From Clostridiales bacterium (lineage in GTDB: Bacteria > Bacillota > Clostridia > Oscillospirales > Oscillospiraceae), in contig JAJPXB010000029.1 in assembly GCA_021205695.1 (NCBI GenBank), positions 5,582-69,581 of the forward strand: a stretch of DNA of 64,000 bases. The letters run 5' to 3'. The notes beneath the pieces are model-generated. The model was not told where the DNA came from. It did not search any database and worked only from the letters and a program-made list of their open reading frames with translations. Positions 20,916-41,304 of this stretch are shown piece by piece (positions within the stretch are counted from its first letter, which is position 1; the number at the start of each line of letters is the position of its first letter). The translations under genes were made by a program, and so were the position numbers.

Positions 20916-21182
20916 GTGGCTCTGGTTTTATATTTTTTCATCTACTCCATGTTGTCTCCTGTTTTACAGGGCGTTCTGTTCATCGTCATGTGTGCAGGAA
21001 GCATTGTCGCCAGCATCGCCATTCTTCGCTATCTTGACCGCCTCAGCCTAGAGAGGCGAGACGCAGCGTTGAGAAGGGATTTGGTCAAACTTGCAGGTGC
21101 GGATGGAGAAAAGATATTCCGTGAAATTAAACGGAAAGAGGCAGAAGAGAAGGGCATGCGCAAGAAAACAAAAGAGAAATGA
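20916..21182 (+). CDS. Small hypothetical membrane protein (first ORF of the low-GC island)
   Basis: 88 aa with a GTG start (an ATG 11 codons in is an alternative). Two hydrophobic helices are followed by a Lys/Glu/Arg-rich tail. It is co-oriented with and 41 nt upstream of the next gene. Confidence 0.45.
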   Translation: MALVLYFFIYSMLSPVLQGVLFIVMCAGSIVASIAILRYLDRLSLERRDAALRRDLVKLAGADGEKIFREIKRKEAEEKGMRKKTKEK

Positions 21183-21223: not shown

Positions 21224-23446
21224 ATGTATTGTCCTAAATGTGGTCATCAGATTCCTGACGGCAGCCGGTTCTGCCCTGTTTGTGGATGTGATCTCTCTGC
21301 GTACCAGTCTAATGTGCGCCGGCCCAATGACAAACCGGTCCCGCCTAAGCATACCCATAACCCGCTTCCTGTCAGGCAGATCGGCATAGCGGTGGCGGCA
21401 GTGGCAGCGGTGGCAGTTATTGTCGCTGTTGTTTTCGGGGTGCGGGCGCTTTTTTCCGTGATCGGAAATAGCAGCAACGCCTATGTGTACCTGTCAGACG
21501 GAGACTACGAGCTGATTACCGATCTGAGCAAAGGAGATATTATTGAGATCGCTTCCAGCAGGTCTGAATATACATATTCGAGCCTGTTGTCATTCAGCCC
21601 GGACGGAAAATATGTATACTACTACACGAAGTATGACTCTTCGAACAGGACCGGAACGCTGTGCAGAGCCGAGTACGGGAAACTGAAATCGGACTCCAGC
21701 AAGAATGATGACTATATCGTGACCATTGCGTCGAATGTGGCTCTTGGGTTCCAGTGCATCGATGACGAAACCGTGATTTACAAAAATGGCGACGATACGC
21801 TGTATTATTACGATGGCAGCGACGTGACACAGCTGGCGAAATCGGTCAACGAGTTTTATACGGAAGGTACAGAACGCGTCGTGTATACGACCGGGACTTA
21901 TGACGAAGGATACACGTTATATGGCGTGGATGTTACCGATCCGGACAGTAAGGTGAAGCTGGCATCCAACTATGCGGGCCTTTACATCGCAGAGGACTTT
22001 GACAATATTTATTATACAAAAACGGATAGCGACTACAACGCAATGCTGTATGTGGTCGGCTTTGACAAGGACTCTGAGCAGATTGGGAAGAATGTCAACA
22101 TACTGGAACTCGACGACGGGACAGTATATTTCACAGCCGAAAGCGGAGAGACGCTTTCCCTCTACGATTACGTTGATGATACATATGCGTCCCATGACGA
22201 AGGCGTTACAGAACCGGATAAGGATGATTACCTGATTCCTACCTATTCTTATAACCAACTTTCCGTTTCAGATAATGAGGACGACTATGATGAAATCTAC
22301 ACGTCCTGCAGCAAAACAGTGTATTTTTTCCATACGGCAATAAAAAACAAGACTTCTTCCAGCTATACTCTCGCGCAGGAGTTTACTGAAAAGTATCTGG
22401 ACAGTGAAAATTCTGATGGGTATTTTGTTGTCACAGAAACAATCAAGAAAGAACTTCAGGAAATGTGTGATGAATACGGTCAGGGTTATGATAATGAGTG
22501 GCTTGAATTTTGTTTTTCCAAGGAAGAGGATGGAACGGAGGTTGACGAGGATGCTTATTACGCTGCATACAGTGCATACGAAGAGGCGGCAGACCGGATT
22601 TACATCCGGGAAACGCTCCAGAACAGCGAAAACGATTATGCGCTTAAAACGCTCTACTGTTATGCAGACGGCAAACTGACTGCTGTCGCTGAAAATGTGC
22701 TCTCGACAAAGTACTGCAATGGCGCCGTTTTGTACAACACAGCAGATATGGTCACGGAAACAGTCAGCATGACAAGCGTTTACTCAATAAGCGATGTGAC
22801 GGCCCTGTTCGCTATTGATTACTCGGCGGAGAACTATCTGCTGTGTTATGGAACCACAACACCGGCTCAGGTGTCGGCAAGTGCCGCAGAGGACATGGAT
22901 GACGCCTATTATGATTCCGGATATATCTCTCTGCTTGTGATTGGCTCGGGTGTATATATGACCAGCGATGAAGACATTTATTTTGCTGAAATCAGCAACA
23001 ACACGTTGGGCGAGTTTACTTTCGTCAGCGATGACGCATATGTGCTGATGTATGACGATTCCGGAATTTATTATGAGTGCGGCGGCTATTCGAGCAACTC
23101 TGGATATTACATCGATCTCTATAAATGCGTTGGCGGGGAAGACGAACTGGTGGCCCGGGACATTCTTGAGAATGAAATTTGTATTTACGAGGATGAGACC
23201 GTTTTGGCCTATACCGACTACACCAGCTATGGTTATGAGCTGACCATATTTGATGCAAAAGGCGAGAAGGCGATTATAGCGGACGATGTGAGTTTTTACC
23301 TTCGCTGTGCAGATGGCACCGTCCTGTATATAAGCGATGGGGATCTGTATTCCTATGATGACGGAGAGCGAACGCTGGTTGGCCGTGATGCTGATTGGTG
23401 CTGGGTGCTGAACACCATGGAGCCCAGCGTTACTTACAGCTACTAA
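21224..23446 (+). CDS. Zinc-ribbon/TM-anchored protein with large Tyr/Asp-rich propeller-like ectodomain
   Basis: 740 aa with an AGGAGG RBS. The N-terminus has one ribbon, MYCPKCGHQIPDGSRFCPVCG. A TM helix lies at about aa 53-77. Repeats of the SPDGKYVYYY / LYYYDG / IYYTKTD type follow. Confidence 0.85.
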   Translation: MYCPKCGHQIPDGSRFCPVCGCDLSAYQSNVRRPNDKPVPPKHTHNPLPVRQIGIAVAAVAAVAVIVAVVFGVRALFSVIGNSSNAYVYLSDGDYELITDLSKGDIIEIASSRSEYTYSSLLSFSPDGKYVYYYTKYDSSNRTGTLCRAEYGKLKSDSSKNDDYIVTIASNVALGFQCIDDETVIYKNGDDTLYYYDGSDVTQLAKSVNEFYTEGTERVVYTTGTYDEGYTLYGVDVTDPDSKVKLASNYAGLYIAEDFDNIYYTKTDSDYNAMLYVVGFDKDSEQIGKNVNILELDDGTVYFTAESGETLSLYDYVDDTYASHDEGVTEPDKDDYLIPTYSYNQLSVSDNEDDYDEIYTSCSKTVYFFHTAIKNKTSSSYTLAQEFTEKYLDSENSDGYFVVTETIKKELQEMCDEYGQGYDNEWLEFCFSKEEDGTEVDEDAYYAAYSAYEEAADRIYIRETLQNSENDYALKTLYCYADGKLTAVAENVLSTKYCNGAVLYNTADMVTETVSMTSVYSISDVTALFAIDYSAENYLLCYGTTTPAQVSASAAEDMDDAYYDSGYISLLVIGSGVYMTSDEDIYFAEISNNTLGEFTFVSDDAYVLMYDDSGIYYECGGYSSNSGYYIDLYKCVGGEDELVARDILENEICIYEDETVLAYTDYTSYGYELTIFDAKGEKAIIADDVSFYLRCADGTVLYISDGDLYSYDDGERTLVGRDADWCWVLNTMEPSVTYSY

Positions 23447-23543
23447 AGACCATTCCCCCAAAAAAGACGCCCAAAAGCAAGGCTCCCGAAAGCAGGCAAG
23501 GGCGAGATTAGAGGAACACTATAGAGCCCTTTTATCGGGGGCA

Positions 23544-23781
23544 GGAGGAAGCATATGAAGTGCCCCAACTGTGGAACAGAGAATCCGAAGACCGCTCAAT
23601 TTTGCAGGAAATGCGGATTCAATCTTGAGGGCAGGGTCTGCCCCAAATGCGGAACGCTTGTGCCAAAGGGCGCTCAATACTGTGGGGTGTGTGGAAGAAA
23701 ACTGAAGAAATCGTCGGGGAGAGGTCATAGGATCTGGAAAGTCGCCCTGGTTACTGTATTGTGCCTGGTGCTTGTGGTGGG
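23544..23781 (+). repeat. Copy 1 of duplicated RBS + double-ribbon + TM module
   Basis: Hand alignment to 27508-27745 gives 238 nt with no indels and 16 mismatches (~93% identity). The shared stretch starts at GGAGGAAGCATATG. Confidence 0.9.
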
Positions 23782-26700
23782 TGGCTTCAGCGTAGCGTGG
23801 AAATTCGTCTGGAGCGATGATGCACAGCTTGTGCAGGCTGCCGAAAATTATGCGGAGGTGAACGAGGCGCTGCTCGCCGTCACCACTGCGGACGGCTACG
23901 ACGACCTGACCACGGCGGAAAAGGCGGGGCAGGTACTCGCCGCCCTGGACGACCTGGCGGACGAGGGCAAGGTGCTGGCCGACTCCGTGGGGTACGACGA
24001 GGCCTACCCGCTCGTCTATTATTCCTATGCGGACGGCGCCTATGGCGGCGTGATGCTGGAGGAATTTGCGGAGGGAACCAGCGGCGTGGGCGAAAGCACC
24101 TACAATACCTCCATAAGCTACGTCGAAGGCGGCACAGCGGACATTGACCCCTGGCCGTCTGTTCCGACCTTTGCGATGGAGGGCTCTCCCTATGCGGACG
24201 ACCTCTCAGCGCTGATTGTATGTGATTTGGGGGAAGGATTCGATGACTATCTGGGGTTGATGCAATCGTTGCAATCCAGTTGGAATGAAGCATATCTGGA
24301 AACGACCCTGGTGGAGGAGGGAACCGTTGCCTTTTATCGGACTGGGCTTTCCGGCTACGATCTGGTGGTGATACAGGAGCACGGCATCATTTATAACAAT
24401 AATCCGGCTGTTGTACTCCAGGAAACGTCTGACACCTTACAAAAAATCCGTTACAGCATTGGCGCTACCGTCACAGAAGAGGAACGTGCGATATTGGAAG
24501 ATATTCAGAGCAATCGCACTGTGCTTTTACTGCTCGAGGACGACCAGTTTCATTTTCTTCTGCTGCCGGAATTCTTTTCCGATTATTACGCAGATGACGG
24601 GCTGGAGGACGCAATCGTTTGGATCGGCTGCTGCGATGGCTATCTCAACGACACATTGGTATCCGCCTTTGCAGACTGCGGTGCAAAGGCCGTCCTTGCC
24701 CCCACGGAAACGGTCAGCACAACGTACAATTTCCTGATGCAGGACGCTTTTGTGGATATGCTGTTGTACGGAAACACAGTGGAGGAGTCCCTTACCTTTG
24801 CCCAATCCCAATGGGGTTCGAACGACAGAGAGTTTAAGGAGGCCATCCTTGGCGTAGAGGACGATGACCCAGCGGAGGTTCGCATCTATTGCGGCGGCGA
24901 TGAAACCCTGGTCACGCTGACGGTGGAGGGGCAGGATGCGCTGAAGGGCATCTGCTCCGGCACGGTGATCGACGCAGCAGACAGCAGCGTGCCCATCGTC
25001 GGCGCGACGATAACCGTGACCGACGCAGACGGGACGGTCGCAGAGGCGACCACGGACGAGACCGGCGCATTTGAGATAAAGCTCTACTTGGGGACCTATA
25101 CCGTCCAGATCGAGATGGAGGGCTACCGGACCGTATCAGACGAGGTGACAATTGAGGCGGGCGAGGAAAACGCCATTCTGATCAGCCTGTCTGCGCTGCT
25201 CTCAGACGAGAGCGCCAGGGCAGCCTATCAGCAGTTCCTGGACAACGGGGAATACGCAGATAGAGTCGGCGAGGTGAGCGGCATTCAATATGCCATCTAC
25301 GATGTGACCGGAGACGGGATCAGCGAGCTTCTGCTGCACTGCTATTCCTCAGACGTAGGTGTTGATGGGACATATTATGTCTACAGCTACAATGGCGATG
25401 TATTTTTCATCGGAAGCTGTGAAAACGTTTACTGGGAGGGAGCGTATTATTCTGCCGAAAAAAATAACCTGGTCATCGTTGCAAACGGCGATTCTGACTG
25501 GATCTCCTATGAGTTCTATGATGTGACCGACGATGTGACCGACCAGTTGACGCTGACGTACGAAATGGGGCGCATATTTTACGAATCTGGCTCGGAGCCA
25601 GACACGGACGATGTCCTGGACGGCCACTTTTATATTGCGGACGCCGGAGTGATGTCCAGAGATGTCACAGAATCGGAATGGAACAGTCATATCAATGAAC
25701 TGACGGAGATCGTGTTTTCCGACCTGTCCGCCACGAACGATGATTTGCTTTATCAATATATCCCTGACGATGCATTGATATACAACGGGCATTCCTACTA
25801 TTATTTTGCTGATTATAGCCTGGAATGGGAAGACGCCAATGCGTATTGCGAGTCTCTTGGTGGGCATCTTGTGACGATTACTTCTGAAGAAGAGCAGAAT
25901 GCGGTTTACAATTATATCTCTGCACTGGCAGGAAATGTTGACATTTGGATTGGAATATCAGATTCTGATGAAGAAGGGAACTGGTCTACCTGGATAACCG
26001 GAGAAACAGTCACCTATACAAATTGGGGAAGCGGAGAGCCAGATGACTACTCCACAGGTCAAGATTACGGTGTAATTTGTTGCGGGACAAGGAATGGAAG
26101 TACCTATAACGTATTACCGGGTCAATGGGATGATGTGAATTCTATTAGCGATGAGGTAAACGGTAGTTTTATCTGTGAATGGGAATATTGTGCGGAGCAG
26201 AACAGCAACACCGACGATCTAACTGAAATTGAAGAGACCGACCTGTCGGACGTTGCCCATGGTACTTGCGGCGATGACCTGACATGGACCTATAGCTCCA
26301 GCGGCGTGCTGACCATTTCCGGCACAGGAGAGATGTGGGGGTGGAATCCTTCCAGGGAAACGAATTCGGCGTACACAATGACGGCGATCACCTATGAGGA
26401 GATTCCATGGTACGATTATAAAGACCAGATCACCTCAGTCGTTGTGGAGGATGGCGTCACTTCCATTGGAATCTGTGCCTTTTATGAGTGTACTAGCCTA
26501 GCCAGCATCTCCATTCCGACCAGTGTGACTATCCTTCACAGTCAGGCGTTTTTTGGCTGCACAAGTCTGGTCGAAGTGATTATTCCCGACAGTGTGACCA
26601 GTATAGACGACCAGGTATTCTACAATTGCATCAGTCTGACAAGCGTTGTGATCGGAAGCGGCGTGACAACAATCAGCTATGCCGCTTTCTATGGATGTAG

Positions 26701-27070
26701 CAGTTTGACAGATGTCTATTATGCGGGCAGCGAGTCGGAGTGGGCTTCTATTGATATCGCATCCAACAATGAATGCTTGACCGCCGCTGCAAGCGCCGAA
26801 CAGCAGCCGTTTTATGGAGTCTGGTGCGCGGCCACAAAGAAGAGCGCCGATGCGCAGAGCGTAGCCGAGCAACTGCGCGAGCAGGGCTTCGATGCGCAGG
26901 TTTGCCTGACCACCAACTGGGAGGGGCTGAACAGCGAGGCATACTATGTCGTCACAGCCGGGCGGTATGATACCGAAGCAGAGGCCAAGGCTGCTTTGGC
27001 GGAGGTGCAGGCCGTCGGCTATTCGTCTGCGTATGTGAAATATACAGGAGATTGGAGTGGGAACGGATGA
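23555..27070 (+). CDS. Double-zinc-ribbon/TM-anchored multidomain surface protein (CarboxypepD_reg-like, C-type lectin-like, BspA-type LRR, SPOR)
   Basis: 1171 aa. Ribbons are at aa 3-47 and the TM helix at aa ~59-80. GTVIDAADSS...YTVQIEMEGY spans aa ~466-545. A CTLD (WIGISD...EGNW, GEPDD, WDD, ICEWEY) spans aa ~741-878. LRRs (SIGICAFYECTSL...) span aa ~905-1070 and a SPOR-like domain spans aa ~1085-1163. Confidence 0.85.
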   Translation: MKCPNCGTENPKTAQFCRKCGFNLEGRVCPKCGTLVPKGAQYCGVCGRKLKKSSGRGHRIWKVALVTVLCLVLVVGGFSVAWKFVWSDDAQLVQAAENYAEVNEALLAVTTADGYDDLTTAEKAGQVLAALDDLADEGKVLADSVGYDEAYPLVYYSYADGAYGGVMLEEFAEGTSGVGESTYNTSISYVEGGTADIDPWPSVPTFAMEGSPYADDLSALIVCDLGEGFDDYLGLMQSLQSSWNEAYLETTLVEEGTVAFYRTGLSGYDLVVIQEHGIIYNNNPAVVLQETSDTLQKIRYSIGATVTEEERAILEDIQSNRTVLLLLEDDQFHFLLLPEFFSDYYADDGLEDAIVWIGCCDGYLNDTLVSAFADCGAKAVLAPTETVSTTYNFLMQDAFVDMLLYGNTVEESLTFAQSQWGSNDREFKEAILGVEDDDPAEVRIYCGGDETLVTLTVEGQDALKGICSGTVIDAADSSVPIVGATITVTDADGTVAEATTDETGAFEIKLYLGTYTVQIEMEGYRTVSDEVTIEAGEENAILISLSALLSDESARAAYQQFLDNGEYADRVGEVSGIQYAIYDVTGDGISELLLHCYSSDVGVDGTYYVYSYNGDVFFIGSCENVYWEGAYYSAEKNNLVIVANGDSDWISYEFYDVTDDVTDQLTLTYEMGRIFYESGSEPDTDDVLDGHFYIADAGVMSRDVTESEWNSHINELTEIVFSDLSATNDDLLYQYIPDDALIYNGHSYYYFADYSLEWEDANAYCESLGGHLVTITSEEEQNAVYNYISALAGNVDIWIGISDSDEEGNWSTWITGETVTYTNWGSGEPDDYSTGQDYGVICCGTRNGSTYNVLPGQWDDVNSISDEVNGSFICEWEYCAEQNSNTDDLTEIEETDLSDVAHGTCGDDLTWTYSSSGVLTISGTGEMWGWNPSRETNSAYTMTAITYEEIPWYDYKDQITSVVVEDGVTSIGICAFYECTSLASISIPTSVTILHSQAFFGCTSLVEVIIPDSVTSIDDQVFYNCISLTSVVIGSGVTTISYAAFYGCSSLTDVYYAGSESEWASIDIASNNECLTAAASAEQQPFYGVWCAATKKSADAQSVAEQLREQGFDAQVCLTTNWEGLNSEAYYVVTAGRYDTEAEAKAALAEVQAVGYSSAYVKYTGDWSGNG

Positions 27071-27306
27071 GTGAAAGACCAAATCAGGATGGGCGCCACA
27101 TAATGAAATGCCCAAATTGCAAAAATGAAATAAAGGACCACTGCAGGTTTTGCTATATATGTGGCTCCAGATTGTTCCGCGTTTGTACGTGGTGCGGTAC
27201 GCCGGCTGAGCCAGAAGCAATGTTTTGTAATAATTGTGGCCCCGGCTTACGGGATGATGGCAGAAACCCATGGATGTATGTTTTGAATGGTAAGGAGTTC
27301 CGATGA
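27067..27306 (+). CDS. Small soluble double-zinc-ribbon protein
   Basis: ATG 27067 overlaps the preceding stop (ATGA at 27067-27070). The two ribbons are CPNCKNEIKDHCRFCYICG and CTWCGTPAEPEAMFCNNCG. No TM helix. The track's TTG start at 27052 is an alternative. Confidence 0.65.
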   Translation: MSERPNQDGRHIMKCPNCKNEIKDHCRFCYICGSRLFRVCTWCGTPAEPEAMFCNNCGPGLRDDGRNPWMYVLNGKEFR

Positions 27307-27507
27307 CTTGCTTGCCAGCAGCCAGTTGAACTGTCTCACTGTTTTTCCACAATAGCCAGTCAGTATACGATGGGTCTGCACGCAAACGGTGCATAGATCT
27401 CGTTGCTTTTTAGCAGAGAGGGCAGGTTTGGTCAAATAGCAGAAGGCAATGGATGCGTGCAGGGAAAAGCGCGTGGACGGCTTTGTGTATATGCTTACAT
27501 GAGGGAT

Positions 27508-27745
27508 GGAGGAAGCATATGAAGTGCCCCAACTGTAGAACAGAGCAGCCGGAGACTGCGAAATTTTGCGGCAAATGCGGATTCAAGCTTGAGGGCAGGG
27601 TCTGCCCCAAATGTGGAACGCTTGCGCCGAAGGGCGCTCAATACTGTGGGGTGTGTGGAAGAAAACTGAAGAAATCGTCGGGGGGAGGTCATAGGATCTG
27701 GAAAGTCGCCCTGGCTATTGTATTGTGCCTGGTGCTTGTGGTGGG
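27508..27745 (+). repeat. Copy 2 of duplicated RBS + double-ribbon + TM module
   Basis: See 23544-23781. The offset is exactly 3964 nt. Confidence 0.9.
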
Positions 27746-30700: not shown

Positions 30701-31382
30701 CAGCGGAACGACCTCCGGTGACGCCGACACGGAGTTGGAATTCAGACTTGTCATCAACACAACAGCCAGCGATTATGAATCCGGCACATTCACGTTTGAA
30801 GAGAAACTGACGCGCGGGAATAGCCTGCTGGACAGCCACGGCGATGGCGAGGCTGAAGGCGACAGCGAGGCTGAAACATCGGGCAATGCGGATGTCAGCG
30901 AGATCGTGCTCGACACGTCGTACGCAAACGACTATGAATTCGGCAATATCTGCGCCTATGATTCCGACGGAAACCTGGTCTGGTCCTATGAGACCGGCTC
31001 CTATCCCGCAACGGAGCTCGGCGCAATCAGTGAGATCGGGCTGAGAGACGGATGCTACTACTTTGTGGAGAGCGGCACCGTTGTCGCCATGGATGCGGCA
31101 ACGGGTGAGATCCTGTGGAGGAACAGCGATTTTGGGGGCTCTGGAGCGTCGGCGTTTGCGGAGGACTGCATCTGTCTGGCAGGGTATTACGGTCCGGACT
31201 TTTACGCCGTGTCCTATGACGGGACGACGCTCTGCACGATAAACAGCTTTGGCACCGAATACTATTGGGCGTCCAATGTCACGATATCGGGCAATACGGC
31301 GCTCGTGTCCCTGAACGATGGCTATTATGAAGCCCGGATAAACCTGGAAACATGGGAGTATACCATTTCCGACGTGGGCTGA
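27519..31382 (+). CDS. Double-zinc-ribbon/TM-anchored thermolysin-like (M4) metalloprotease with CarboxypepD_reg-like and PQQ-like repeat domains
   Basis: The start is ATG 27519 after GGAGG; the track start 27453 is over-extended. 1287 aa with ribbons + TM as in 23555. FTP/PepSY-like propeptide segments are present. HEYAH is at 28824-28838 and AIAEGFADIYG has its Glu at 28893-28895. A CarboxypepD_reg-like domain spans aa ~707-787. C-terminal repeats resemble GNLVWSYETG...ATGEILWRN. Confidence 0.85.
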   Translation: MKCPNCRTEQPETAKFCGKCGFKLEGRVCPKCGTLAPKGAQYCGVCGRKLKKSSGGGHRIWKVALAIVLCLVLVVGTGFIVWEHWQSNAGEESAYDNLLILTDKFTDRAVTDEDSAILAAQDAAESLGLQNAMEELEPLSTAEAYGDSYYRLQQYYRGYPVYGRAVVVLADENGEAFTLVGNVADVDADLNFTPSVTQTELEKSLSAYAEEELELSGEVSLEEASDDALVIYDLYDEETHLAYELSASLDEELYTVVLDANDGEVLVACETLSSASITGTNSSGTVTVNASVSDENEGTYFLYDSERKISILDLDGTTSQKTVGWSGNGRGGDSSDAEDSTKAILGEQVSSTETNSEGAAIFSDDAINYLDTLSKIYDTYENWGINSLYTIYANYRDGFDSGMNAVGGVVTVDGTTFGYISAGLVTGTSDIDAYAHEYAHYIMYSHITLTSNYRSAIAEGFADIYGCLVECEIEGWDEPDWSITGDNINVYRDMAEPTASGNAEYWDGEEDSEHEYNESTIISHAAYLMWRGKDSKIGIGQTYGSLSVDELAELWYRAMLMFPTDCDYNHVCQLVELAAEHMSLSDQQKECISWAFYQVGIAETYTLDADFNLTLYDTNGDSYAEYYASVEVILSEETLSENTAIVYEPGVDGILSFHLDSGKAYKVTLIDNQDDTKKFLFYAYITDKNGYDTLTLYTDFGTVKTGTLSGTIVSASDSSTAIGGASVTVLDGDTVVEELTTDEDGAFEAEVSPGTYTVQIEMDGYDAVELTVSVDLREDVDVGEITMTSSSNEKVLRAKLNELIETYGIFASGQSGTVSNYVVPSWLNPTGILSATILDLDADGSLELQVCRTEKWEYGGYTYYKVLMEVYEADTQAAYLATYMWFDPYGTSADVYDDTYVYPLTYVSLTETENNQILATVNAAQTENGYYLVCEYYMQGVLGDGGYGATWVLEYQNETLQYVCSLENGDVGSSVDTGFAYEEFDNEDPAPFPTKITMYYEPEVTDLKQYYYYTDLEEWDWTPGAIKREFFAKYGLKFASTETEFVFSYDNFGGYGDYYGFSGTTSGDADTELEFRLVINTTASDYESGTFTFEEKLTRGNSLLDSHGDGEAEGDSEAETSGNADVSEIVLDTSYANDYEFGNICAYDSDGNLVWSYETGSYPATELGAISEIGLRDGCYYFVESGTVVAMDAATGEILWRNSDFGGSGASAFAEDCICLAGYYGPDFYAVSYDGTTLCTINSFGTEYYWASNVTISGNTALVSLNDGYYEARINLETWEYTISDVG

Positions 31383-31609
31383 CACCGACTGCGCGCGGCT
31401 GTGGGACTGCTGCCTCACCATTTACATTTTGCGGGATTAAGCGGAAGCAGAAGGGGGGAGTTTTCCCATGCCATGTTTACAATCATAGCAGAACGACCTG
31501 CGCTGCCTGAAGGACACCGTTCCGGAGACGGACGCAGGTGGGATCGAATATCTCGGGGCAGAATTCTGAGATGGCTGCCGACAATTTTTAGAACAGGAGA
31601 GAAAGACAA

Positions 31610-32500
31610 ATGGGTATTTTCGACAGATTTGGAAAGAAAATTTCCGACACAGGACGGGATGCGATTGAAACGGGAAAGGGGTATGCCAATATATCCAAAT
31701 ACAACGGGATGATCTCGGAGAACAACGAGAAAATAAGACATCTCATGCAGGAAATTGGCGAGAAGTACTGTCAATTGCATATGGAAGACGCAGAACCGAC
31801 ATTAAGAACACTGGTCAGCGCAGTGGCTGATATGCAGGCGCAAAACCGGGAGCTGGAGAATGAAATCCTGGATTTGCGAGGGCTGAAAAAGTGCCCATTT
31901 TGCGGGGAAATTATATCAAAAAGTATCGCCTATTGCGATAAATGCGGTAATCGGGTTTTGTCGGAAGATGTAGTGGTTTGCCCGAACCCGAAGTGCAGGG
32001 AGCTTTTGCCTGCAGGAACCCTGTTCTGCTTAAAATGCGGTAAACGCGTGGTCAGCGATACACCGGCCAAAACGCCGCAGCTGCAAAAGTGTGCGAGATG
32101 CGGCGCTTCGTTGGTGGACGGAGCCAGGTTTTGCTCTGTCTGCAGCGAACCTGTCCTTGGGCAGAAGGCGGAGGAACAGCCGCCTGCCCTGCCGCGCAAG
32201 TGCCCCAAGTGCGAGAGCCCCGTGTCTGAGGGGGACGTGTTTTGCCCCGTTTGTGGCACGAAAGTGATCGGCGGGGAATCTACGCAGGTACAGCCCCTTA
32301 CGGGGGCAGCGGATGCAGGCGAGGAGACTGCTCAGAAACAGGAGACGTCTTCCGGGAAACAGGCCAACGTGCCTGATTACGCACAGGTAAACGACATTGT
32401 GAATCAGATTGCGTCAGAGACAGTGGCTGTCTGCCCCCGGTGCGGAAGCAAGCTGGAGCCGGACAGCGCATTCTGCTCCGAGTGCGGCCTTAAGCTGTAG
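31610..32500 (+). CDS. Soluble protein with N-terminal coiled-coil-like segment and five zinc ribbons
   Basis: 296 aa with no TM helix. The ribbons are CPFC..CDKC, CPNPKC..CLKC, CARC..CSVC, CPKC..CPVC and CPRC..CSEC. Confidence 0.85.
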   Translation: MGIFDRFGKKISDTGRDAIETGKGYANISKYNGMISENNEKIRHLMQEIGEKYCQLHMEDAEPTLRTLVSAVADMQAQNRELENEILDLRGLKKCPFCGEIISKSIAYCDKCGNRVLSEDVVVCPNPKCRELLPAGTLFCLKCGKRVVSDTPAKTPQLQKCARCGASLVDGARFCSVCSEPVLGQKAEEQPPALPRKCPKCESPVSEGDVFCPVCGTKVIGGESTQVQPLTGAADAGEETAQKQETSSGKQANVPDYAQVNDIVNQIASETVAVCPRCGSKLEPDSAFCSECGLKL

Positions 32501-32616
32501 ACGGCGGCTGAACAGAAGCCGGATACGGCAGAGCAGGCCGCAGAAGTGAAAGAGAAAGAAGCTCAAGCGGCTTGCCTGCCTGTTTGCATCCGTGGCGCGG
32601 GAAAGGAAAAAATACT

Positions 32617-34257
32617 ATGATCTGCCCAAACTGTAAAAGAGAAGTGTCGGATTCTGCCAAATTTTGTCCGAAATGCGGCGAAAAAATAGAAAAAGAAGTG
32701 CTGTGCCCTTCGTGCGGAAAACCAGTGTCCAAGCAGATGACATACTGCCCATGGTGTAGCAACCTATTGCAGGAGAGCCAGCAGAAAACGGCCTTCTGTA
32801 TGACGTGCGGGAAACCGGTGCCTCCTGGGGAGACATGTTGCTCCGACTGCCAGAAAAAGAAGAGGCGGAAAAAACATTTGCGTACAGCGATAATCGTGGT
32901 ATGCATTATCCTGCTGCTGGTTGTCGGAATTGTAGGCGGCTTCTATCTGTATGGACAACCGCTGCCGTTTGAAATAGGAGCGCAACAGACCGAGGATGAG
33001 ATGGACGAGGAAGCCGCATCAGAGGAAGCCGCGACGGACAGTGAAGACGGGGACGCGGCATCTGCCACTGACGCAGCTGATGCCGACAGCGAGGAGCAGA
33101 TGGCGGAGGCGACGGTTGAGGAGGCACCTGAGGAGACGCAGCTGACCACGGAGCAGTGCGTGCAAATCTACGGTGACTACTATAGTGATGCCGGGTTACA
33201 GTCACAGCTACAATACATAGCGTATGACAGCAATGGGAATATCACGAACACAGAGGAAATGGGCGTGGTGTCCGTCAGCGTGGCTGACCTGAATGATGAC
33301 GGGACATTAGAGATGCTTTTGGTTCAGGTCAGTGGGGAGAACCAGGCAGGGCTCTGCATGGAAATCTACGGGATAGAAGATGGAGCAGCCGCCCTGCAGG
33401 CGTCGCTGGAGGATTTGTATCCGGAGGCTCTGGAGGCCTCTAGTGGCAGGAGAACGGACGTTGTCCAGGTCGGAGAGTCGATCCTGGTCGCCATATATGG
33501 AGACGGCGTGGCTGTGGCGTATCTCTATCAGCTCGATGAAAACGCACTGGAGCTGGTGTGGAGTGCGCAGACTGGGGACGAATGGGCAGAGAGTGAACTG
33601 GAGGAACTGACAAACAGCTGGTGCGCAGATGTACTTGCGGACTATCTGTCCACGGCGGGATCCAAATATGATGATGTAGACTATGGGAACGGGGAGCTGC
33701 TGTGCTCGTTTATTGGGAGCGGAGTCGGCAGCCAGAGTAAAACGGAGCAGGGGATCACAAATGTGTATGATTACACAGGCACCTTGGATAATGCAGAGGT
33801 GAACGAGTTTGATTTTCCGGCCGGCACAGTGGAATATAACGGACACCATTATATGGTCTGTCTGGAGACGACCGACTGGGAGAGCGCTGAACTTGCATGC
33901 GAGGAGATGGGCGGGCATTTGGTGACAATTGCCAACGCCGAAGAAAATGACTACGTGTATACATTGGCTTGCGCCTACAGTACAGAGCTGGCCTTCCTGA
34001 CCGGCGGGACTGACCATCGACAGGAAGGCACATTTGAGTGGATTACAGGGGAGCCATTTGAGTACACCTGCTGGGGCTATCTAAATGAACCGGACAACTA
34101 TCGCGGCTATAAGGAGCAGGATTATATTACCCTGTTGACATTTGACCAATCTGGCGAATATAAGGACGACAGCGGGGAATCCTGGGGGATTCACGCATCA
34201 GAATGGGACGATAAGGACGGAGGAGATAACCCCTATATCTGCGAGTGGGATTTCTGA
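32617..34257 (+). CDS. Triple-zinc-ribbon/TM-anchored protein with C-terminal C-type lectin-like domain
   Basis: The start is ATG 32617 (MICPNC...). Three ribbons, KKKRRKKHLR and a TM helix are followed by an acidic linker. A CTLD spans aa ~404-546 (HLVTIANAEEN, EGTFEWITGE, NEPDN, WDD, ICEWDF). Confidence 0.85.
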   Translation: MICPNCKREVSDSAKFCPKCGEKIEKEVLCPSCGKPVSKQMTYCPWCSNLLQESQQKTAFCMTCGKPVPPGETCCSDCQKKKRRKKHLRTAIIVVCIILLLVVGIVGGFYLYGQPLPFEIGAQQTEDEMDEEAASEEAATDSEDGDAASATDAADADSEEQMAEATVEEAPEETQLTTEQCVQIYGDYYSDAGLQSQLQYIAYDSNGNITNTEEMGVVSVSVADLNDDGTLEMLLVQVSGENQAGLCMEIYGIEDGAAALQASLEDLYPEALEASSGRRTDVVQVGESILVAIYGDGVAVAYLYQLDENALELVWSAQTGDEWAESELEELTNSWCADVLADYLSTAGSKYDDVDYGNGELLCSFIGSGVGSQSKTEQGITNVYDYTGTLDNAEVNEFDFPAGTVEYNGHHYMVCLETTDWESAELACEEMGGHLVTIANAEENDYVYTLACAYSTELAFLTGGTDHRQEGTFEWITGEPFEYTCWGYLNEPDNYRGYKEQDYITLLTFDQSGEYKDDSGESWGIHASEWDDKDGGDNPYICEWDF

Positions 34258-34279
34258 TTCGAGACAGAGGTGTTGAGAG

Positions 34280-36007
34280 ATGGGAGAACAAGGGAGAGAG
34301 GAGCGATCGAAGGTTGACCAGGAACAGCGGCAGAGAAAGACAAGGTGGTATGCTATCCCCTGCGCCGTAGTCGCAGTTTGTCTCTGCTTGATTGCAATCG
34401 TCCTGGTTCTCGGCCCTGCCGACACGGAAGCGGAGGATATCGGAACCGCAGATGAGCAGACAGAGGAGGATGCTGCGGACGGGAGACAGACCGACAGCGA
34501 TGTGGAGGCGGAGGCCTCGACGTTTGCCATCTCCATCGGAGAGGAAGATCTTACCCTGATGGTGACGGCGCAGAAGCAGCTCACAGCTGTTGTTTCCGAT
34601 AAGAACGGGGACGAGGTGCCAGACAGCGTGCCCGTCACATGGGCCAGCTCTAATCCGGAGGTGGTCTCCGTCTCGGATGACGGAACGATTACCGCTCTGG
34701 CGGAGGGGACGGCACAGATAACAGCGAGCATTTCCGACGGGGAGACTGCATCGCTGTCAGTGACGGTGCTCCCGCTGAATGTGACGGAGAAGACCGTGTT
34801 TGTCCAGCCGGGGGATGTGCTGACCATCAGCGAACTGGGGCTTCTTCCGGAGGAAACGGAGTGGACAGATTTTCAGTGGTCTTGCTCTGACGAGGAGGTG
34901 GCCGCTGTCTCAGCGGGTGAAATCACCATTTTGAGCGACGGAGAGGCGGAGATTTGTGGCAGGGGAGATATTGCGCGCATCTCCTGCACCGTGACGACCT
35001 GCTTTGGCGGCAAACTCATCGCCCATCGGGGACTGAACACCGAGGCGCCGGAGAACACTGTGCCTGCCTTCGAGCTGGCGGGACAGGCGGGCGCCTGGGG
35101 AATAGAGACGGATATCGCCTCGACCGCTGATGGAGTATTGGTCTGTCTTCATGACAGCACCATAGACGCCATGACAGACGGAAGCGGCGAGGTGAGCGAC
35201 TTTACCTATGAGGAATTGATGCAGTACCATATCGATGCAGGAAGCAACGTTGACCAATATCAGGATCTGACCATCCCGACCTTCCAGGAGTATCTGGAGA
35301 TTTGCAGGGAATACGGCGCAGTTGCCGTGATCGAGCTGAAAACCCTGGCCTCTACAGCGGAGGTGCGGACGGTCTATGAGACGATCTGTGCCTGTGGAAT
35401 GGAGGAGCAATGTATTGTCATCAGCTTCCAGTATTCCTATCTCCAGGCGCTGCGCAGCTATACCCGCGACATACCGGTTCAGCTGGTGGTCAATGCTGCC
35501 AGCAAGACGAACATTTCAGAGGCGGCCACACTTGAAAACAGCGGGATCGATTTCAAAACAGGGAGTGAAGAGCTCATTGCCTATGCCCACTCCCTCCATT
35601 GCACGACGAATGTGTGGACAGTAGACACCGCCTCGGCCCAGGAGACCTGGCGAGCGGCGGGGATCGACTTCATCACGGCGAATACGGCGGAGTGGTCCGA
35701 TGAGGCAGCGTCTGACGATGGAGATGAAAACGGTTTAAATGCGGAAACAAAGGACAGGGAGTCGGTCACGCTGTTGCTTGCCTCTGATTATCAGGCAGAG
35801 GACGGTTGGCCTGCGCCCCCGGAGACGCGGACCTCCCTGCTGGACGCTGTCTATGGAGACGGCTATGTGCTGGACAACGCCATCCTGTGTGGCGATTACA
35901 CAAATCTGGAAAAAAGTACAATTATGAGACAAGCCCGGACGATTCGATTGCCGAGATTAAGTCTATCTTTTCGGAATTTGACCCGGGACTGGACACGGAA
36001 ATCATGA
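34280..36007 (+). CDS. Membrane-anchored Big_2 + glycerophosphodiester phosphodiesterase (GDPD) protein; 3' end probably frameshifted
   Basis: The TM helix is at aa ~24-45. A Big_2-like segment (VTWASSNPEVVSVSDDGTITALAEGTAQITA) follows. GDPD motifs are IAHRGLNTEAPENTVPAF...GIETDI...DGVLVCLHD. The reading frame appears to switch at the A6 run at 35910-35915. Confidence 0.8.
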   Translation: MGEQGREERSKVDQEQRQRKTRWYAIPCAVVAVCLCLIAIVLVLGPADTEAEDIGTADEQTEEDAADGRQTDSDVEAEASTFAISIGEEDLTLMVTAQKQLTAVVSDKNGDEVPDSVPVTWASSNPEVVSVSDDGTITALAEGTAQITASISDGETASLSVTVLPLNVTEKTVFVQPGDVLTISELGLLPEETEWTDFQWSCSDEEVAAVSAGEITILSDGEAEICGRGDIARISCTVTTCFGGKLIAHRGLNTEAPENTVPAFELAGQAGAWGIETDIASTADGVLVCLHDSTIDAMTDGSGEVSDFTYEELMQYHIDAGSNVDQYQDLTIPTFQEYLEICREYGAVAVIELKTLASTAEVRTVYETICACGMEEQCIVISFQYSYLQALRSYTRDIPVQLVVNAASKTNISEAATLENSGIDFKTGSEELIAYAHSLHCTTNVWTVDTASAQETWRAAGIDFITANTAEWSDEAASDDGDENGLNAETKDRESVTLLLASDYQAEDGWPAPPETRTSLLDAVYGDGYVLDNAILCGDYTNLEKSTIMRQARTIRLPRLSLSFRNLTRDWTRKS

Positions 36008-36139
36008 TTTGGCACTGGCCCCGTGGGCACAGAACGGGAAAAAGAAAAAGCTGTGTCGGAAGAAAAGACGCTAAAACGGACAAGCAACAGAGTCAGACCT
36101 CTGCGAATGACAGTATATGAACGAATCTGTAGATGAAAT

Positions 36140-36910
36140 ATGGAGGGGAATGGGCCAATGCACGGGAGAGAAATCAAAGTAGAAATTGAACAGACGATGC
36201 AAAGTGCATTTTTCAGCAGAGGTCATCTACGCCCTGTATACAGCAAAAAAGAGTCGAAAAGGATGAAACTGAAAGAGGCGTATGCTCTGGCGTTTGGTGC
36301 CTGTTTACGAATAGATGATATGTTCGCAAACGGATGCACCTATGAGGAATATGCTTGTGAGATGGACCGGCATCAGTTCGGACCTCCTGCGCAGGATCTG
36401 CCCCGAACGATGGGCTTTGCCAGGTGGAACGAAAAGGTCAGTATCCGCGTTCCATATCCTCCGCTTGATGTCACCTGTTGCCTATATGTGACGTTCAGAA
36501 TATCTGAATCGGAGAAAAAGTCGCTGCCGAAAATGAAACCGTCACGGCCTGAAGAGAGGCCGCTTCCCAAAAAAGATAAAGAGTGGATATGCCCTGCCTG
36601 TGGAGCCACTTCTTCTATTTCGACGTTCTGCTCTAATTGTGGGAGAAAAAGGGAAAGCAAAGTCGTTGCAAAGTCAAATATCTGTTATTTTGATGCGAAG
36701 GGTGAAATGTGCGAGAAAGAAAACGCCACAACATTCCTTATCACAGAATATGATAAAGACGGCAACCTCATAAATTCTGTTCATGGCTTATACAGGGAAT
36801 GGGTTTGCTGCTGTTGTGGACACAGGAATTCTGCTGATGTGCGTTTCTGTGTTTATTGTGGGAAAAGAAGGGATCATAGGGAAGGGTTTTATGATGAATC
36901 GAAACGATGA
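36140..36910 (+). CDS. Soluble hypothetical protein with two C-terminal zinc ribbons
   Basis: 256 aa. The ribbons are CPACGATSSISTFCSNCG and CCCCGHRNSADVRFCVYCG. No TM helix. The start codon is uncertain because several in-frame ATGs are available. Confidence 0.7.
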   Translation: MEGNGPMHGREIKVEIEQTMQSAFFSRGHLRPVYSKKESKRMKLKEAYALAFGACLRIDDMFANGCTYEEYACEMDRHQFGPPAQDLPRTMGFARWNEKVSIRVPYPPLDVTCCLYVTFRISESEKKSLPKMKPSRPEERPLPKKDKEWICPACGATSSISTFCSNCGRKRESKVVAKSNICYFDAKGEMCEKENATTFLITEYDKDGNLINSVHGLYREWVCCCCGHRNSADVRFCVYCGKRRDHREGFYDESKR

Positions 36911-37271
36911 AGAGCCACTATAGTTATGCCCTTTCTGTGGCGTTTCCATCGATTTAAAAATAAACCGTTGCCTGAGCTGTGACCAGCCAGGATAAATTCC
37001 AGCTTATCGGTTTGTGGTATTGTCGCTGCTGGGATTTCAACATAAAAGCTAATATAAAGTGATCCGCATCCCCTTACAAGCAGAACGCTGTTTCAGGAGT
37101 TGGCAAAACAAATGTTGGAGCAGTCTGAAGCTGGGACAAATGAGACAGACCCCTGATATTTATATCGGCTCTGTCTCATTTTGCCATATCCCATCTGACG
37201 ACCGATGCTCCAAGAGGGCGACGACGTTTTCTCGGATGTGCAATATGTCAAACTAAAATACTTGAACACAG

Positions 37272-41286: not shown

Positions 41287-41304
41287 AGGAGGGGAAACAC
41301 GGCC

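What the first reader, a model, noticed from the sequence alone, without database searches (positions are those of the whole stretch)
21224..36995. Seven neighbouring ORFs carry 17 short zinc ribbons: candidate ribbon-anchored surface-module system
CxxC-(9-10 aa)-CxxC knuckle pairs of the zinc_ribbon_2/DZR type (e.g. CPNCGTENPKTAQFCRKCG) occur in seven ORFs. The counts are 21224-23446 (1), 23555-27070 (2), 27067-27306 (2), 27519-31382 (2), 31610-32500 (5), 32617-34257 (3) and 36140-36910 (2). That is 17 by my count, plus an orphan copy at 36924-36995. In four proteins the ribbons sit at the extreme N-terminus, followed by a Lys/Arg-rich stretch (RKLKKSSGRGHR, KKKRRKKHLR) and one hydrophobic helix. 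By the positive-inside rule the ribbons are cytoplasmic and the 430-1200-aa remainder is outside. The ectodomains form a toolkit: propeller-like Tyr/Asp-rich repeats, two C-type lectin-like domains, BspA-type LRRs and SPOR. They also include a thermolysin-like protease, two CarboxypepD_reg-like folds and PQQ-like repeats. An eighth gene adds Big_2 + GDPD on a plain anchor. Three proteins are ribbon-only and soluble. My inference is that the ribbon is a shared cytoplasmic docking or signalling handle, and the soluble multi-ribbon proteins could bridge or regulate the membrane ones. The layout of a cytoplasmic Zn domain, a TM helix and an extracellular binding module recalls ZAS and RsgI anti-sigma factors. 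However, no sigma factor, kinase, sortase or secretion gene lies in the island. I do not know a described system with this composition.
Basis: partly seen in the sequence, partly recalled or inferred. Interest (0 to 1): 0.85.

Follow-up and report, generated by a model that had tools for sequence, protein, structure and literature searches.

The report
Zinc-ribbon-tailed surface protein gene island
A gut Clostridiales bacterium carries a low-GC island of membrane-anchored surface proteins. Each has small zinc-binding "ribbon" tails predicted to face the cytoplasm. The single-protein design is already described, but the repeated pairing with a soluble multi-ribbon partner protein appears undescribed and hints at an internal scaffold.

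Summary
Seven same-strand ORFs between 21224 and 36910 carry 17 CxxC...CxxC ribbons, plus a start-less relic at 36924-36995. No other intact motif occurs in any frame of the 64 kb.

In A, B, D and F the ribbons come first. A basic stretch and one TM helix follow, which predicts ribbons inside and ectodomain outside.

This single-protein architecture is already published: YARHG proteins (2012), NTF2-like DUFs (2013), S. aureus TcaA and B. subtilis YdjG/SamG.

Three things appear new:
- The propeller protein A (ribbon cysteines invariant in 17 orthologs) lies directly beside homologs of the soluble multi-ribbon protein E in 13 of 43 loci from other Clostridia.
- Ribbon genes are about 5-fold enriched around A (p=7e-6), and a second nine-gene ribbon island exists (L046).
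- B and D share a 93%-identical 243-nt cassette covering RBS, ribbons and TM helix.

E's N-terminal helical hairpin has no Pfam model and defines at least 477 clusters.

H is probably a bystander. No sigma factor, ZAS motif or RsgI domain is present. Docking between ribbons is inferred, not shown.

Verdict: a new variant of a known kind, of moderate interest.

The parts
20916..21182 (+). 88-aa small hydrophobic/charged ORF at the left edge of the low-GC island; membership doubtful
   Evidence: ORF. No Pfam or NCBIfam hit. No homolog in related loci.
21224..23446 (+). A: one N-terminal Zn ribbon, disordered linker, TM helix, ~650-aa beta-propeller-rich ectodomain; conserved core gene
   Evidence: Zn_Ribbon_1 at 35.8 bits. 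TM helix and flank charges. 184 homologs found. C3, C6, C17 and C20 are invariant in 17 orthologs. AF2 model pLDDT 83 with propeller fold hits.
23539..23781 (+). Cassette copy 1: RBS + double ribbon + basic stretch + TM helix of B
   Evidence: 243-nt direct repeat, 93% identical to 27503-27745, with sharp borders. Five synonymous and 11 nonsynonymous codon differences; all 8 Cys kept.
23555..27070 (+). B: 2 ribbons, TM helix, ~380 aa unassigned, CarboxypepD_reg, C-type lectin (EPD/WDD motifs), BspA-type LRR_5, SPOR
   Evidence: Pfam. Lectin motifs. No family for residues 85-465.
27067..27306 (+). C: small soluble protein made of 2 ribbons (alternative start ATG 27103)
   Evidence: DZR at 41.7 bits and Zn_Ribbon_1 at 42.4 bits. 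No TM helix. Start candidates.
27503..27745 (+). Cassette copy 2: RBS + double ribbon + basic stretch + TM helix of D
27519..31382 (+). D: 2 ribbons, TM helix, FTP propeptide motif, thermolysin-like M4 domain (HEYAH...E), CarboxypepD_reg, unassigned region, PQQ_2/BamB-like repeats
   Evidence: Pfam. HExxH at residue 436.
31610..32500 (+). E: soluble protein with an amphipathic N-terminus, a helical hairpin (residues 7-89) and 5 ribbons on flexible linkers; conserved partner of A
   Evidence: Pfam. Cys of ribbons 1-2 are invariant in alignment A2. Adjacent to A orthologs. N-domain family of 477 clusters. AF2 model. Hydrophobic moment 0.65-0.73.
32617..34257 (+). F: 3 ribbons, KKKRRKKHLR, TM helix, acidic linker, unassigned domain, C-terminal C-type lectin (EPD/WDD)
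   Evidence: Pfam. TM helix and flank charges. Motifs.
34280..36007 (+). G: basic N-terminus, TM anchor, Big_2, GDPD phosphodiesterase; no ribbon
   Evidence: Pfam; NCBIfam glycerophosphodiester phosphodiesterase.
36158..36910 (+). H: soluble, ~145 aa unknown domain + 2 weak ribbons; probably a bystander
   Evidence: Ribbon HMMs below threshold. Only 2 homologs besides the window's own protein. The closest full-length one (57%) lies among murC-like, SSB and gatCAB genes with no ribbon neighbours.
36924..36995 (+). Relic ribbon fragment (LCPFCGVSIDLKINRCLSCDQPG*) without a start codon
   Evidence: Sequence. A stop lies immediately upstream and the frame differs from H's.
37894..38701 (+). Split IS-type transposase (HTH ORF + rve_3 ORF) marking the right side of the island
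   Evidence: Pfam
39481..39567 (-). tRNA-Leu(GAG) near the right-hand end of the low-GC segment
   Evidence: ARAGORN; GC profile

Best explanation
**What it is**
The segment is a variable chromosomal island with lower GC (0.46-0.56) than most of the flanking sequence (0.60-0.68). It encodes bitopic surface proteins of a gut Clostridiales bacterium.

**Shown or strongly supported**
- A, B, D and F are single-pass proteins. Their short tails consist of 1-3 Zn_Ribbon_1/DZR ribbons, followed by a basic stretch and a TM helix. This predicts ribbons in the cytoplasm and ectodomains outside.
- The ectodomains are a propeller, C-type lectins, LRRs, SPOR, an M4 protease and PQQ-like repeats. G, with Big_2 + GDPD, is anchored the same way but lacks a ribbon.

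**Inferred**
- The ribbon tails are generic cytoplasmic contact modules. E is their soluble, membrane-proximal, multivalent partner.
- E would bind the membrane through its amphipathic N-terminus and self-associate through its helical hairpin.
- Its 2-11 ribbons on flexible linkers would bridge or cluster the ribbon tails of A and other ribbon-tailed envelope proteins. This would co-localise or regulate a changeable set of glycan-binding, adhesive and hydrolytic surface modules.

**How the set evolves**
It appears to grow by duplicating or converting a portable RBS-ribbon-TM cassette in front of new ectodomains.
For: - **Architecture and topology:**
- **Cysteine conservation:** ribbon Cys are invariant across 17 A orthologs at 39-68% identity, while the linker is unconserved and disordered. 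E's ribbon Cys are invariant in 14 homologs at 21-65% identity.
- **A-E linkage:** E homologs occur in 14 of 43 A-anchored loci from Lachnospiraceae, Oscillospiraceae and Ruminococcaceae. In 13 they are directly adjacent on the same strand, in both gene orders.
- **Enrichment:** 39 of 207 genes within 3 positions of A carry ribbons, against 8 of 186 at 6 or more positions (odds ratio 5.2, p=7e-6). E-bearing loci hold more other ribbon genes (1.7 vs 0.59, p=0.013).
- **A second island:** L046 has nine ribbon genes, including A-like, E, VWA+Lectin_C, YARHG and DUF3160 proteins.
- **Ribbons track the cytoplasmic end:** the S8-VWA protein in L020 has signal peptide, ectodomain, TM helix, then a C-terminal double ribbon.
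- **E away from A:** E homologs elsewhere also neighbour ribbon-bearing membrane proteins (L052, L054).
- **E family:** 128 of the top 149 N-domain relatives carry 1-11 ribbons and 125 of those have no TM helix. One variant is tail-anchored.
- **Cassette:** B and D share it at 93% nucleotide identity, while the rest of the genes has diverged.
- **Precedent:** in B. subtilis the ribbon-bearing membrane protein YdjG/SamG, together with YdjH/SamH, recruits the soluble zinc-finger SPFH protein YdjI/SamI (PMC8581546; 10.64898/2026.02.06.704340).
Against: - No direct evidence exists that ribbons contact each other or E. No multimer modelling or interaction assay could be run.
- Two thirds of A loci lack E within 10 kb. 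In the window, A and E are 8 kb apart.
- Gene content around A is highly variable.
- Ribbon residues other than Cys follow the generic PF13240 consensus, so no partner-specific surface is evident.
- About 4% of background genes in these loci also carry ribbons, so the motif is common in Clostridia.
- My ORF calling was a crude longest-ORF heuristic.
- Zinc binding and topology are predicted, not measured.
Confidence: 0.45

Rival explanations
1. There is no system. Each ribbon is an independent N-terminal cap: a fast-folding, non-translocatable domain that fixes the N-in orientation or stabilises the tail. This design is very common in Clostridia. The clustering would reflect local tandem duplication and domain shuffling inside a variable surface-protein island.
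For: - The B/D cassette and the shared CarboxypepD_reg segment show tandem duplication.
- H is a bystander, and G, H and the 88-aa ORF do not recur.
- Locus content is very variable and 29 of 43 loci lack E.
- Ribbons follow a generic consensus.
- The architecture is widespread and long known.
Against: - It does not explain the direct A-E adjacency in both orders across three families at 32-58% A identity.
- It does not explain why a soluble protein family consisting of a helical domain plus ribbon arrays exists and sits next to ribbon-bearing membrane proteins.
- It does not explain C-terminal cytoplasmic ribbons on type I proteins, where a cap role in topogenesis is not needed.
Confidence: 0.3
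2. The proteins are transmembrane signalling devices or membrane-tethered regulators. Ligand binding by the ectodomain would change what the cytoplasmic ribbons bind (nucleic acid or a regulator). This was proposed for ribbon-TM-YARHG proteins and is analogous to anti-sigma factors.
For: - The published hypothesis of Coggill & Bateman 2012 (PMC3355149) and Eberhardt et al. 2013 (PMC3924330).
- The ligand-binding nature of the lectin, LRR, SPOR and propeller domains.
- Zinc ribbons commonly bind nucleic acids (established knowledge).
Against: - The island has no sigma factor, transcription factor, kinase or site-1/site-2 protease.
- There is no ZAS motif or anti-sigma domain in the anchored proteins.
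- Enzymatic ectodomains (M4 protease; S8 in relatives) fit effectors better than sensors.
- The tails are only 20-80 aa of generic ribbons.
Confidence: 0.13
3. The genes form an envelope-stress or membrane-microdomain module of the PspA-YdjGHI/SamGHI type. E would act like a PspA- or SPFH-associated peripheral membrane factor recruited by ribbon-bearing membrane proteins.
For: - E starts MGIFDRF with a strongly amphipathic first ~18 residues, reminiscent of the PspA/Vipp1 helix alpha0 (my knowledge).
- An E homolog lies in the same gene cluster as a Band_7_1+DZR protein in L054.
- A Band_7_1+ribbon protein was retrieved with E (P0128).
- SamG/SamI precedent.
Against: - No PspA_IM30 or Band_7 hit for E, even at E<=10.
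- No PspA or SPFH gene in the window.
- E's hairpin is much shorter than the PspA hairpin, with no significant fold match.
- The large adhesive and hydrolytic ectodomains are not explained.
Confidence: 0.08

Closest known systems
Ribbon-TM-ectodomain architecture of Gram-positive proteins (e.g. zinc ribbon pair + TM + YARHG, Coggill & Bateman 2012; zinc ribbon + TM + NTF2-like DUFs, Eberhardt et al. 2013)
   Same: It uses the same Pfam ribbon families (PF13240, PF12773, PF13248) at the N-terminus, one TM helix and an extracellular binding domain. The same topological inference was made, and the distribution is Gram-positive. A YARHG version lies in the related island L046.
   Different: Those papers treat single proteins and propose membrane-tethered transcription factors. 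They do not describe clusters of such genes, a soluble multi-ribbon partner, or the lectin, LRR, protease and propeller ectodomains seen here.
Staphylococcus aureus TcaA
   Same: TcaA has an intracellular zinc finger, a single membrane span and a large extracellular domain, and it affects the cell envelope (PMC10328498).
   Different: There is no sequence homology beyond the ribbon (15-17 bits against a 550-bit cut-off). TcaA is a single gene, its ectodomain is different, and the role of its zinc finger is unknown.
Bacillus subtilis PspA-YdjGHI (SamGHI) module
   Same: A membrane protein with an N-terminal CPNC ribbon (YdjG/SamG) and a soluble protein with a zinc-finger motif (YdjI/SamI) are encoded together. 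The soluble protein depends on the membrane proteins for membrane localisation. This is the same logic as proposed for A and E.
   Different: The window has no PspA, SPFH or YdjH homolog. E has a novel helical N-domain instead of SPFH. The anchored proteins here carry large surface ectodomains. It has not been shown in Bacillus that the zinc motifs mediate the contact.
ZAS and RsgI anti-sigma factors
   Same: A cytoplasmic N-terminal domain, one TM helix and an extracellular sensing or binding module; RsgI also carries carbohydrate-binding modules.
   Different: There is no HxxxCxxC anti-sigma domain, no RsgI_N domain and no partner sigma factor. The resemblance is in layout only.
Archaeal ArnA and small CPxCG zinc-finger proteins; DZANK1-type double ribbons
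   Same: These are the best sequence and structure matches for E's ribbons.
   Different: The matches cover only the 25-45-aa ribbon units. The contexts are unrelated: an FHA domain, ribosomal proteins and eukaryotic cilia.

Membership tests
Zn_Ribbon_1 / DZR / Zn_ribbon_3 zinc ribbons (PF13240, PF12773, PF13248) | Two CxxC knuckles about 9-13 residues apart | tested here: met
   17 units in 7 ORFs. One unit in E uses Cx4C.
Zn_Ribbon_1 / DZR / Zn_ribbon_3 zinc ribbons (PF13240, PF12773, PF13248) | HMM score above the Pfam gathering threshold | tested here: met
   A 35.8, B 46.4, C 42.4, D 42.1 and E 92.6 bits for Zn_Ribbon_1; F 47.3 bits for DZR. H is below threshold at 23.2 and 20.7 bits.
Zn_Ribbon_1 / DZR / Zn_ribbon_3 zinc ribbons (PF13240, PF12773, PF13248) | The four cysteines are conserved in orthologs | tested here: met
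   A: C3, C6, C17 and C20 invariant in 17 sequences. E: C95, C98, C109, C112, C124, C129, C140 and C143 invariant in 14 sequences. Not tested for B, C, D or F orthologs.
Zn_Ribbon_1 / DZR / Zn_ribbon_3 zinc ribbons (PF13240, PF12773, PF13248) | Binds one Zn(II) per unit | not testable with these tools
   Needs metal analysis of purified tails.
ZAS anti-sigma factors | HxxxCxxC motif in an N-terminal anti-sigma domain (zf-HC2) | tested here: not met
   There is no zf-HC2 hit. The motif is absent from A, B, D, E, F, G and H. One chance overlap occurs inside C's ribbons.
ZAS anti-sigma factors | Co-encoded ECF sigma factor | tested here: not met
   No sigma-70 family hit in the island or its immediate flanks.
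RsgI anti-sigma factors | RsgI_N cytoplasmic domain and adjacent sigI | tested here: not met
   No such Pfam hits. The only related hit is a sub-threshold Sigma_reg_N match over F's TM region (16.8 vs 26.3 bits).
RsgI anti-sigma factors | Juxtamembrane autoproteolytic SEAL domain | not tested
   The juxtamembrane regions of B and F have no family hit. Their structures were not modelled.
TcaA family (NF053815) | Full-length homology above the NCBIfam cut-off of 550 bits | tested here: not met
   E scores 17.2 bits and F 15.3 bits, over the ribbon only.
PspA-YdjGHI/SamGHI module | PspA (ESCRT-III) and SPFH/Band_7_1 genes in the operon | tested here: not met
   None in the window. A Band_7_1+DZR gene lies near an E homolog in L054 only.
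PspA-YdjGHI/SamGHI module | Ribbon-bearing membrane protein co-encoded with a soluble zinc-finger protein | tested here: met
   A, B, D and F are co-encoded with E and C in the window. The A-E adjacency recurs.
Diversity-generating retroelement targets (C-type lectin fold variable proteins) | Nearby reverse transcriptase and a template/variable repeat pair | tested here: not met
   No RT domain. The only repeats are the B/D cassette and two short segments.
Thermolysin-like M4 metallopeptidase (protein D) | Peptidase_M4_C above threshold, with HExxH and a downstream Glu ligand | tested here: met
   48.3 bits against a 24.4-bit cut-off, and FTP at 30.6 bits. HEYAH at 436 and AIAEGFAD follow. The N-terminal M4 HMM did not hit.
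Canonical C-type lectin domain (proteins B, F) | Lectin_C HMM above threshold, plus EPx and WxD Ca2+/sugar-binding motifs | tested here: met
   52.6 and 39.9 bits. EPD at 828 with WDD at 858 in B; EPD at 491 with WDD at 530 in F. Sugar binding itself was not tested.

The most novel reading that the evidence does not exclude
E-family proteins would be cytoplasmic scaffolds widespread in Clostridia. They consist of an unnamed ~92-aa amphipathic helical-hairpin domain followed by a beads-on-a-string array of 1-11 zinc ribbons. By ribbon-to-ribbon or ribbon-to-tail contacts they would gather ribbon-tailed envelope proteins into defined surface assemblies. Those proteins include propeller, lectin, LRR, protease, S8-VWA and YARHG types. 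The result would be an inside-the-membrane analogue of cohesin-dockerin logic, with new surface modules plugged in simply by acquiring the portable RBS-ribbon-TM cassette.
Probability: 0.25. Interest if true: 0.75.

Novelty: new variant of a known kind. Interest (0 to 1): 0.45.

Why it matters
N-terminal zinc ribbons followed by a TM helix are, to my knowledge, among the commonest unexplained features of Firmicute membrane proteins, including the clinically relevant TcaA. Their function has never been established.

This locus gives a concrete, testable handle on that question through three findings:
- A conserved gene pair, the ribbon-tailed propeller protein A and the soluble multi-ribbon protein E.
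- Recurring islands of ribbon genes.
- A recently copied ribbon-TM cassette.

If the ribbons prove to be docking tails for a multivalent cytoplasmic scaffold, that would explain how abundant gut Clostridia such as Faecalibacterium, Gemmiger and Lachnospiraceae organise lectins, adhesins and proteases on their surface without sortase signals. It would also define a new protein domain, E's N-terminal hairpin.

If they are mere topogenic caps, the island is an ordinary variable surface-protein locus.

Tried and rejected
- **Anti-phage defence:** PADLOC gave only sub-threshold noise.
- **Phage or plasmid origin:** the A family is absent from IMG/VR viral contigs and PLSDB plasmids.
- **ICE cargo:** in Solibaculum (L008) the module abuts TraG, CHAP, DUF6674 and a serine recombinase. 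These genes do not recur in any other locus.
- **DGR-diversified lectins:** there is no reverse transcriptase and no template/variable repeats.
- **ZAS/RsgI membership:** it fails on motif, domain and sigma partner.
- **PspA or SPFH homology of E's N-domain:** no HMM hit at E<=10 and no fold match.
- **Identity of B residues 85-465, F 112-418, D 788-1144 and H 1-144:** no Pfam hits for any; B's region also gave no PDB sequence hit. A caspase-like His-Gly/Cys pattern in B is only an impression.
- **Operon structure:** promoter and terminator scans were no better than shuffled sequence.
- **H as a system member:** rejected because its ortholog sits in a housekeeping context.

Full report
**1. 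Observation**

The region 20.9-37 kb holds nine same-strand ORFs. Its GC content is 0.46-0.56, against 0.60-0.68 for most of the window outside it. The neighbouring genes are housekeeping ones: gltX, a MATE transporter and leuA upstream, and addAB and hflX further downstream. To the right lie a YcxB-like gene, a split IS transposase (37894-38701) and tRNA-Leu(GAG) at 39481-39567.

One E unit has a Cx4C knuckle.

A six-frame scan of all 64 kb returns 22 matches. Twenty-one lie at 21230-36980 in the ORF frames, some as overlapping knuckle pairings, and the 22nd contains a stop codon. The clustering is therefore not chance.

The "orphan" at 36924-36995 has no start codon, follows a TAG directly, and is in a different frame from H. 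It is a relic.

**2. Domain content and topology**

Pfam confirms Zn_Ribbon_1, DZR or Zn_ribbon_3 above threshold in A-F. H is below threshold.
- B: LRR_5, Lectin_C, SPOR and CarboxypepD_reg.
- D: FTP, Peptidase_M4_C, CarboxypepD_reg and PQQ_2.
- F: Lectin_C.
- G: Big_2 and GDPD.

D keeps HEYAH plus a downstream Glu. The lectins keep EPD and WDD motifs equivalent to the EPN/WND sugar and Ca2+ site.

A's ectodomain has no Pfam family. It models confidently (pLDDT 83) as beta-propeller-rich, with generic matches to LRP6, sortilin and tricorn.

A, B, D, F and G each have one strongly hydrophobic helix. Net charge is +2 to +7 before it and -2 to -6 after it. By the positive-inside rule the ribbons are cytoplasmic.

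Only C is ribbon-only. E has a 92-aa helical N-domain, and H has about 145 aa of unknown sequence.

**3. Comparative evidence**

*The A family.* A is large and full-length conserved, with 184 hits in gut and rumen Clostridia including Fusicatenibacter and Solibaculum mannosilyticum. Across 17 orthologs at 39-68% identity the four ribbon cysteines are invariant, while the linker to the TM helix is unconserved and disordered.

*Neighbours of A.* Contexts of three orthologs already showed small ribbon proteins, C-type-lectin giants and an S8+VWA giant nearby. A scan of one genome per GTDB species gave 41 loci from Lachnospiraceae, Oscillospiraceae and Ruminococcaceae. I called ORFs myself and clustered them, together with two earlier loci (L005 and L008), with BLASTP. 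Two recurrent neighbours emerged:
- The E family is present in 14 of 43 loci. It is directly adjacent to A on the same strand in 13 of them, with E upstream in four and downstream in nine.
- A small polytopic membrane protein followed by a ~1000-aa S8-VWA protein with ribbons occurs in 6 loci by clustering. L008 also has the pair.

*Enrichment.* Ribbon-bearing ORFs make up 19% of genes within three positions of A and 4% at six or more positions (odds ratio 5.2, Fisher p=7e-6). Loci with E carry more additional ribbon genes (1.7 vs 0.59, p=0.013).

*A second island.* L046, from a Lachnospiraceae MAG (hRUG856), is a second "ribbon island". It has nine same-strand ribbon genes, among them A-like, E, VWA+Lectin_C, YARHG and DUF3160 proteins.

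*Ribbons at the other terminus.* The S8-VWA protein of L020 has a signal peptide, an ectodomain, a TM helix and then a C-terminal double ribbon. The ribbons thus track the cytoplasmic end whichever terminus that is.

*Other recurring and non-recurring genes.* C-type lectin domains recur in L005, L008, L011, L044 and L046. By contrast G, H and the 88-aa ORF have no counterparts there. H's 57%-identical ortholog sits among murC-like, SSB, asnS and gatCAB genes. H is most likely a bystander.

**4. The E family**

- In 14 homologs at 21-65% identity, the cysteines of ribbons 1 and 2 are invariant and the ribbon number varies from 2 to 5.
- The N-domain alone (residues 1-93) finds 477 representative clusters at E<=1e-3 among 1.84 billion proteins. 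The match is almost always at the N-terminus.
- Of the top 149, 128 carry 1-11 ribbons and 125 of those lack a TM helix. Most ribbon-free hits are short, so some may be fragments. One variant is tail-anchored, and one has about 11 ribbons on Pro-rich linkers.
- No Pfam, NCBIfam or PDB family matches the N-domain.
- AF2 predicts a long helical hairpin (7-56 and 66-89) followed by well-formed ribbons on flexible linkers, with no significant fold match.
- The first ~18 residues (MGIFDRFGKKISD...) have a hydrophobic moment of 0.65-0.73. This suggests a membrane-binding amphipathic helix (inference).
- E homologs away from A also neighbour ribbon-bearing membrane proteins. In L054 one also lies near a Band_7_1+DZR protein.

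**5. Cassette**

B and D share a 243-nt block (23539-23781 and 27503-27745) that is 93% identical. It begins at the Shine-Dalgarno sequence and ends at the end of the TM helix, with sharp borders. The only other similarity between the two genes at the DNA level is a CarboxypepD_reg segment at 74%.

Within 77 codons there are 5 synonymous and 11 nonsynonymous differences. Six of the nonsynonymous ones fall at non-Cys positions of ribbon 1, and all eight cysteines are kept. This points to a recent duplication or gene conversion of a portable RBS-ribbon-TM module.

**6. Interpretation**

*Well supported.* This is a variable island of N-in/C-out surface proteins with cytoplasmic zinc-ribbon tails. 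The lower GC and the adjacent IS and tRNA suggest it may have been horizontally acquired.

*Inferred (confidence about 0.45).* The tails are generic contact modules, and E is a multivalent, membrane-proximal partner that bridges or regulates them. The basis is conserved A-E linkage, enrichment of ribbon genes, the beads-on-a-string architecture of E, and one experimental precedent. In B. subtilis the ribbon-bearing SamG/YdjG, together with SamH, recruits the soluble zinc-finger SPFH protein SamI/YdjI.

*Rivals.*
- Independent topogenic caps plus local duplication (0.30).
- Membrane-tethered regulators or sensors, as proposed by Coggill & Bateman (0.13).
- A Psp/SPFH-type stress module (0.08).

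**7. Comparison with known systems**

The single-protein architecture is published:
- A ribbon pair, TM helix and YARHG domain, with the same topology argument (PMC3355149).
- Ribbon, TM helix and NTF2-like DUFs (PMC3924330).
- TcaA, with an intracellular zinc finger (PMC10328498).

NCBIfam also recognises "4-Cys prefix" domains on kinases and an N-terminal DZR on a PP2C phosphatase.

ZAS and RsgI membership fails on motif, domain and sigma partner. Defence, phage, plasmid, ICE and DGR readings were tested and rejected.

I found no paper describing clusters of ribbon-tailed surface proteins, the A family, the E family, or their linkage. The literature tool covers only open-access text.

**8. 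Verdict**

I rate it a new variant of a known kind, with interest 0.45.

Noticed in passing
window 23539-23781 and 27503-27745: A 243-nt direct repeat, 93% identical, runs exactly from the RBS to the end of the TM helix of B and D. The rest of the two genes is diverged. Amino-acid changes concentrate in non-Cys positions of ribbon 1.
   Followed up: yes
window 36924-36995: This ribbon-coding fragment has no start codon. It lies immediately after a TAG and in a different frame from H, so it is probably the remnant of a lost or frameshifted ribbon gene at the island edge.
   Followed up: partly
window 37894-38701 and 39481-39567: An IS-type transposase is split into an HTH ORF and an rve_3 ORF and is probably inactive. 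tRNA-Leu(GAG) lies on the minus strand next to the low-GC segment. Together with the GC drop from ~0.65 to ~0.5, this suggests past horizontal acquisition.
   Followed up: partly
window 23807-24949 (B residues 85-465): This large juxtamembrane region has no Pfam or PDB sequence match. It contains a '...VVIQEHGI...' and '...WIGCCDGY...' pattern reminiscent of caspase/gingipain-type His-Gly/Cys dyads. That is unverified.
   Followed up: partly
window 26036-26137 (B) and 34087-34212 (F): Both bacterial C-type lectin domains keep EPD and WDD motifs at the positions of the animal EPN/WND Ca2+-sugar site. This suggests genuine calcium-dependent glycan binding.
   Followed up: partly
window 32617 vs 32878 (F start); L001 5225: The public (Logan) gene call for F starts at an internal TTG. 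It drops all three ribbons, although they are in frame behind an ATG and score above Pfam thresholds. Automatic annotation may therefore undercount such ribbons.
   Followed up: partly
L008 1-2873 and 16673-20243 (Solibaculum mannosilyticum): Here the A-E-S8/VWA module is flanked by TraG, DUF6674, a CHAP hydrolase, a sigma70_r4 protein, a PemK toxin and a large serine recombinase, which looks like an ICE. This was not seen in other loci.
   Followed up: yes
L020 13589-16864; also L014, L017, L018, L038: A recurrent ~1000-aa protein has a signal peptide, Peptidase_S8, VWA, a TM helix and, in most copies scanned, one or two cytoplasmic ribbons (a C-terminal double ribbon in L020). It is preceded by a ~200-aa polytopic membrane protein that sometimes has its own N-terminal ribbon.
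   Followed up: partly
L054 199-1593: A Band_7_1 (SPFH) protein fused to double zinc ribbons lies three genes upstream of an E-family gene. This echoes B. subtilis YdjI/SamI.
   Followed up: partly
window 42017-45067 and 45368-47460: Downstream of the island lie a 1016-aa GH3-like protein whose Pfam domains appear in permuted order (GH3_C, Fn3-like, then GH3 N-domain) and a GHKL histidine kinase + LytTR response regulator pair. The two preceding ORFs (39988-42000) have no family hits.
   Followed up: no
window 27100-27306 (C): C contains nine cysteines. An HxxxCxxC string overlaps its first ribbon, giving a chance resemblance to the ZAS motif in a protein with no TM helix or anti-sigma domain.
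   Followed up: yes
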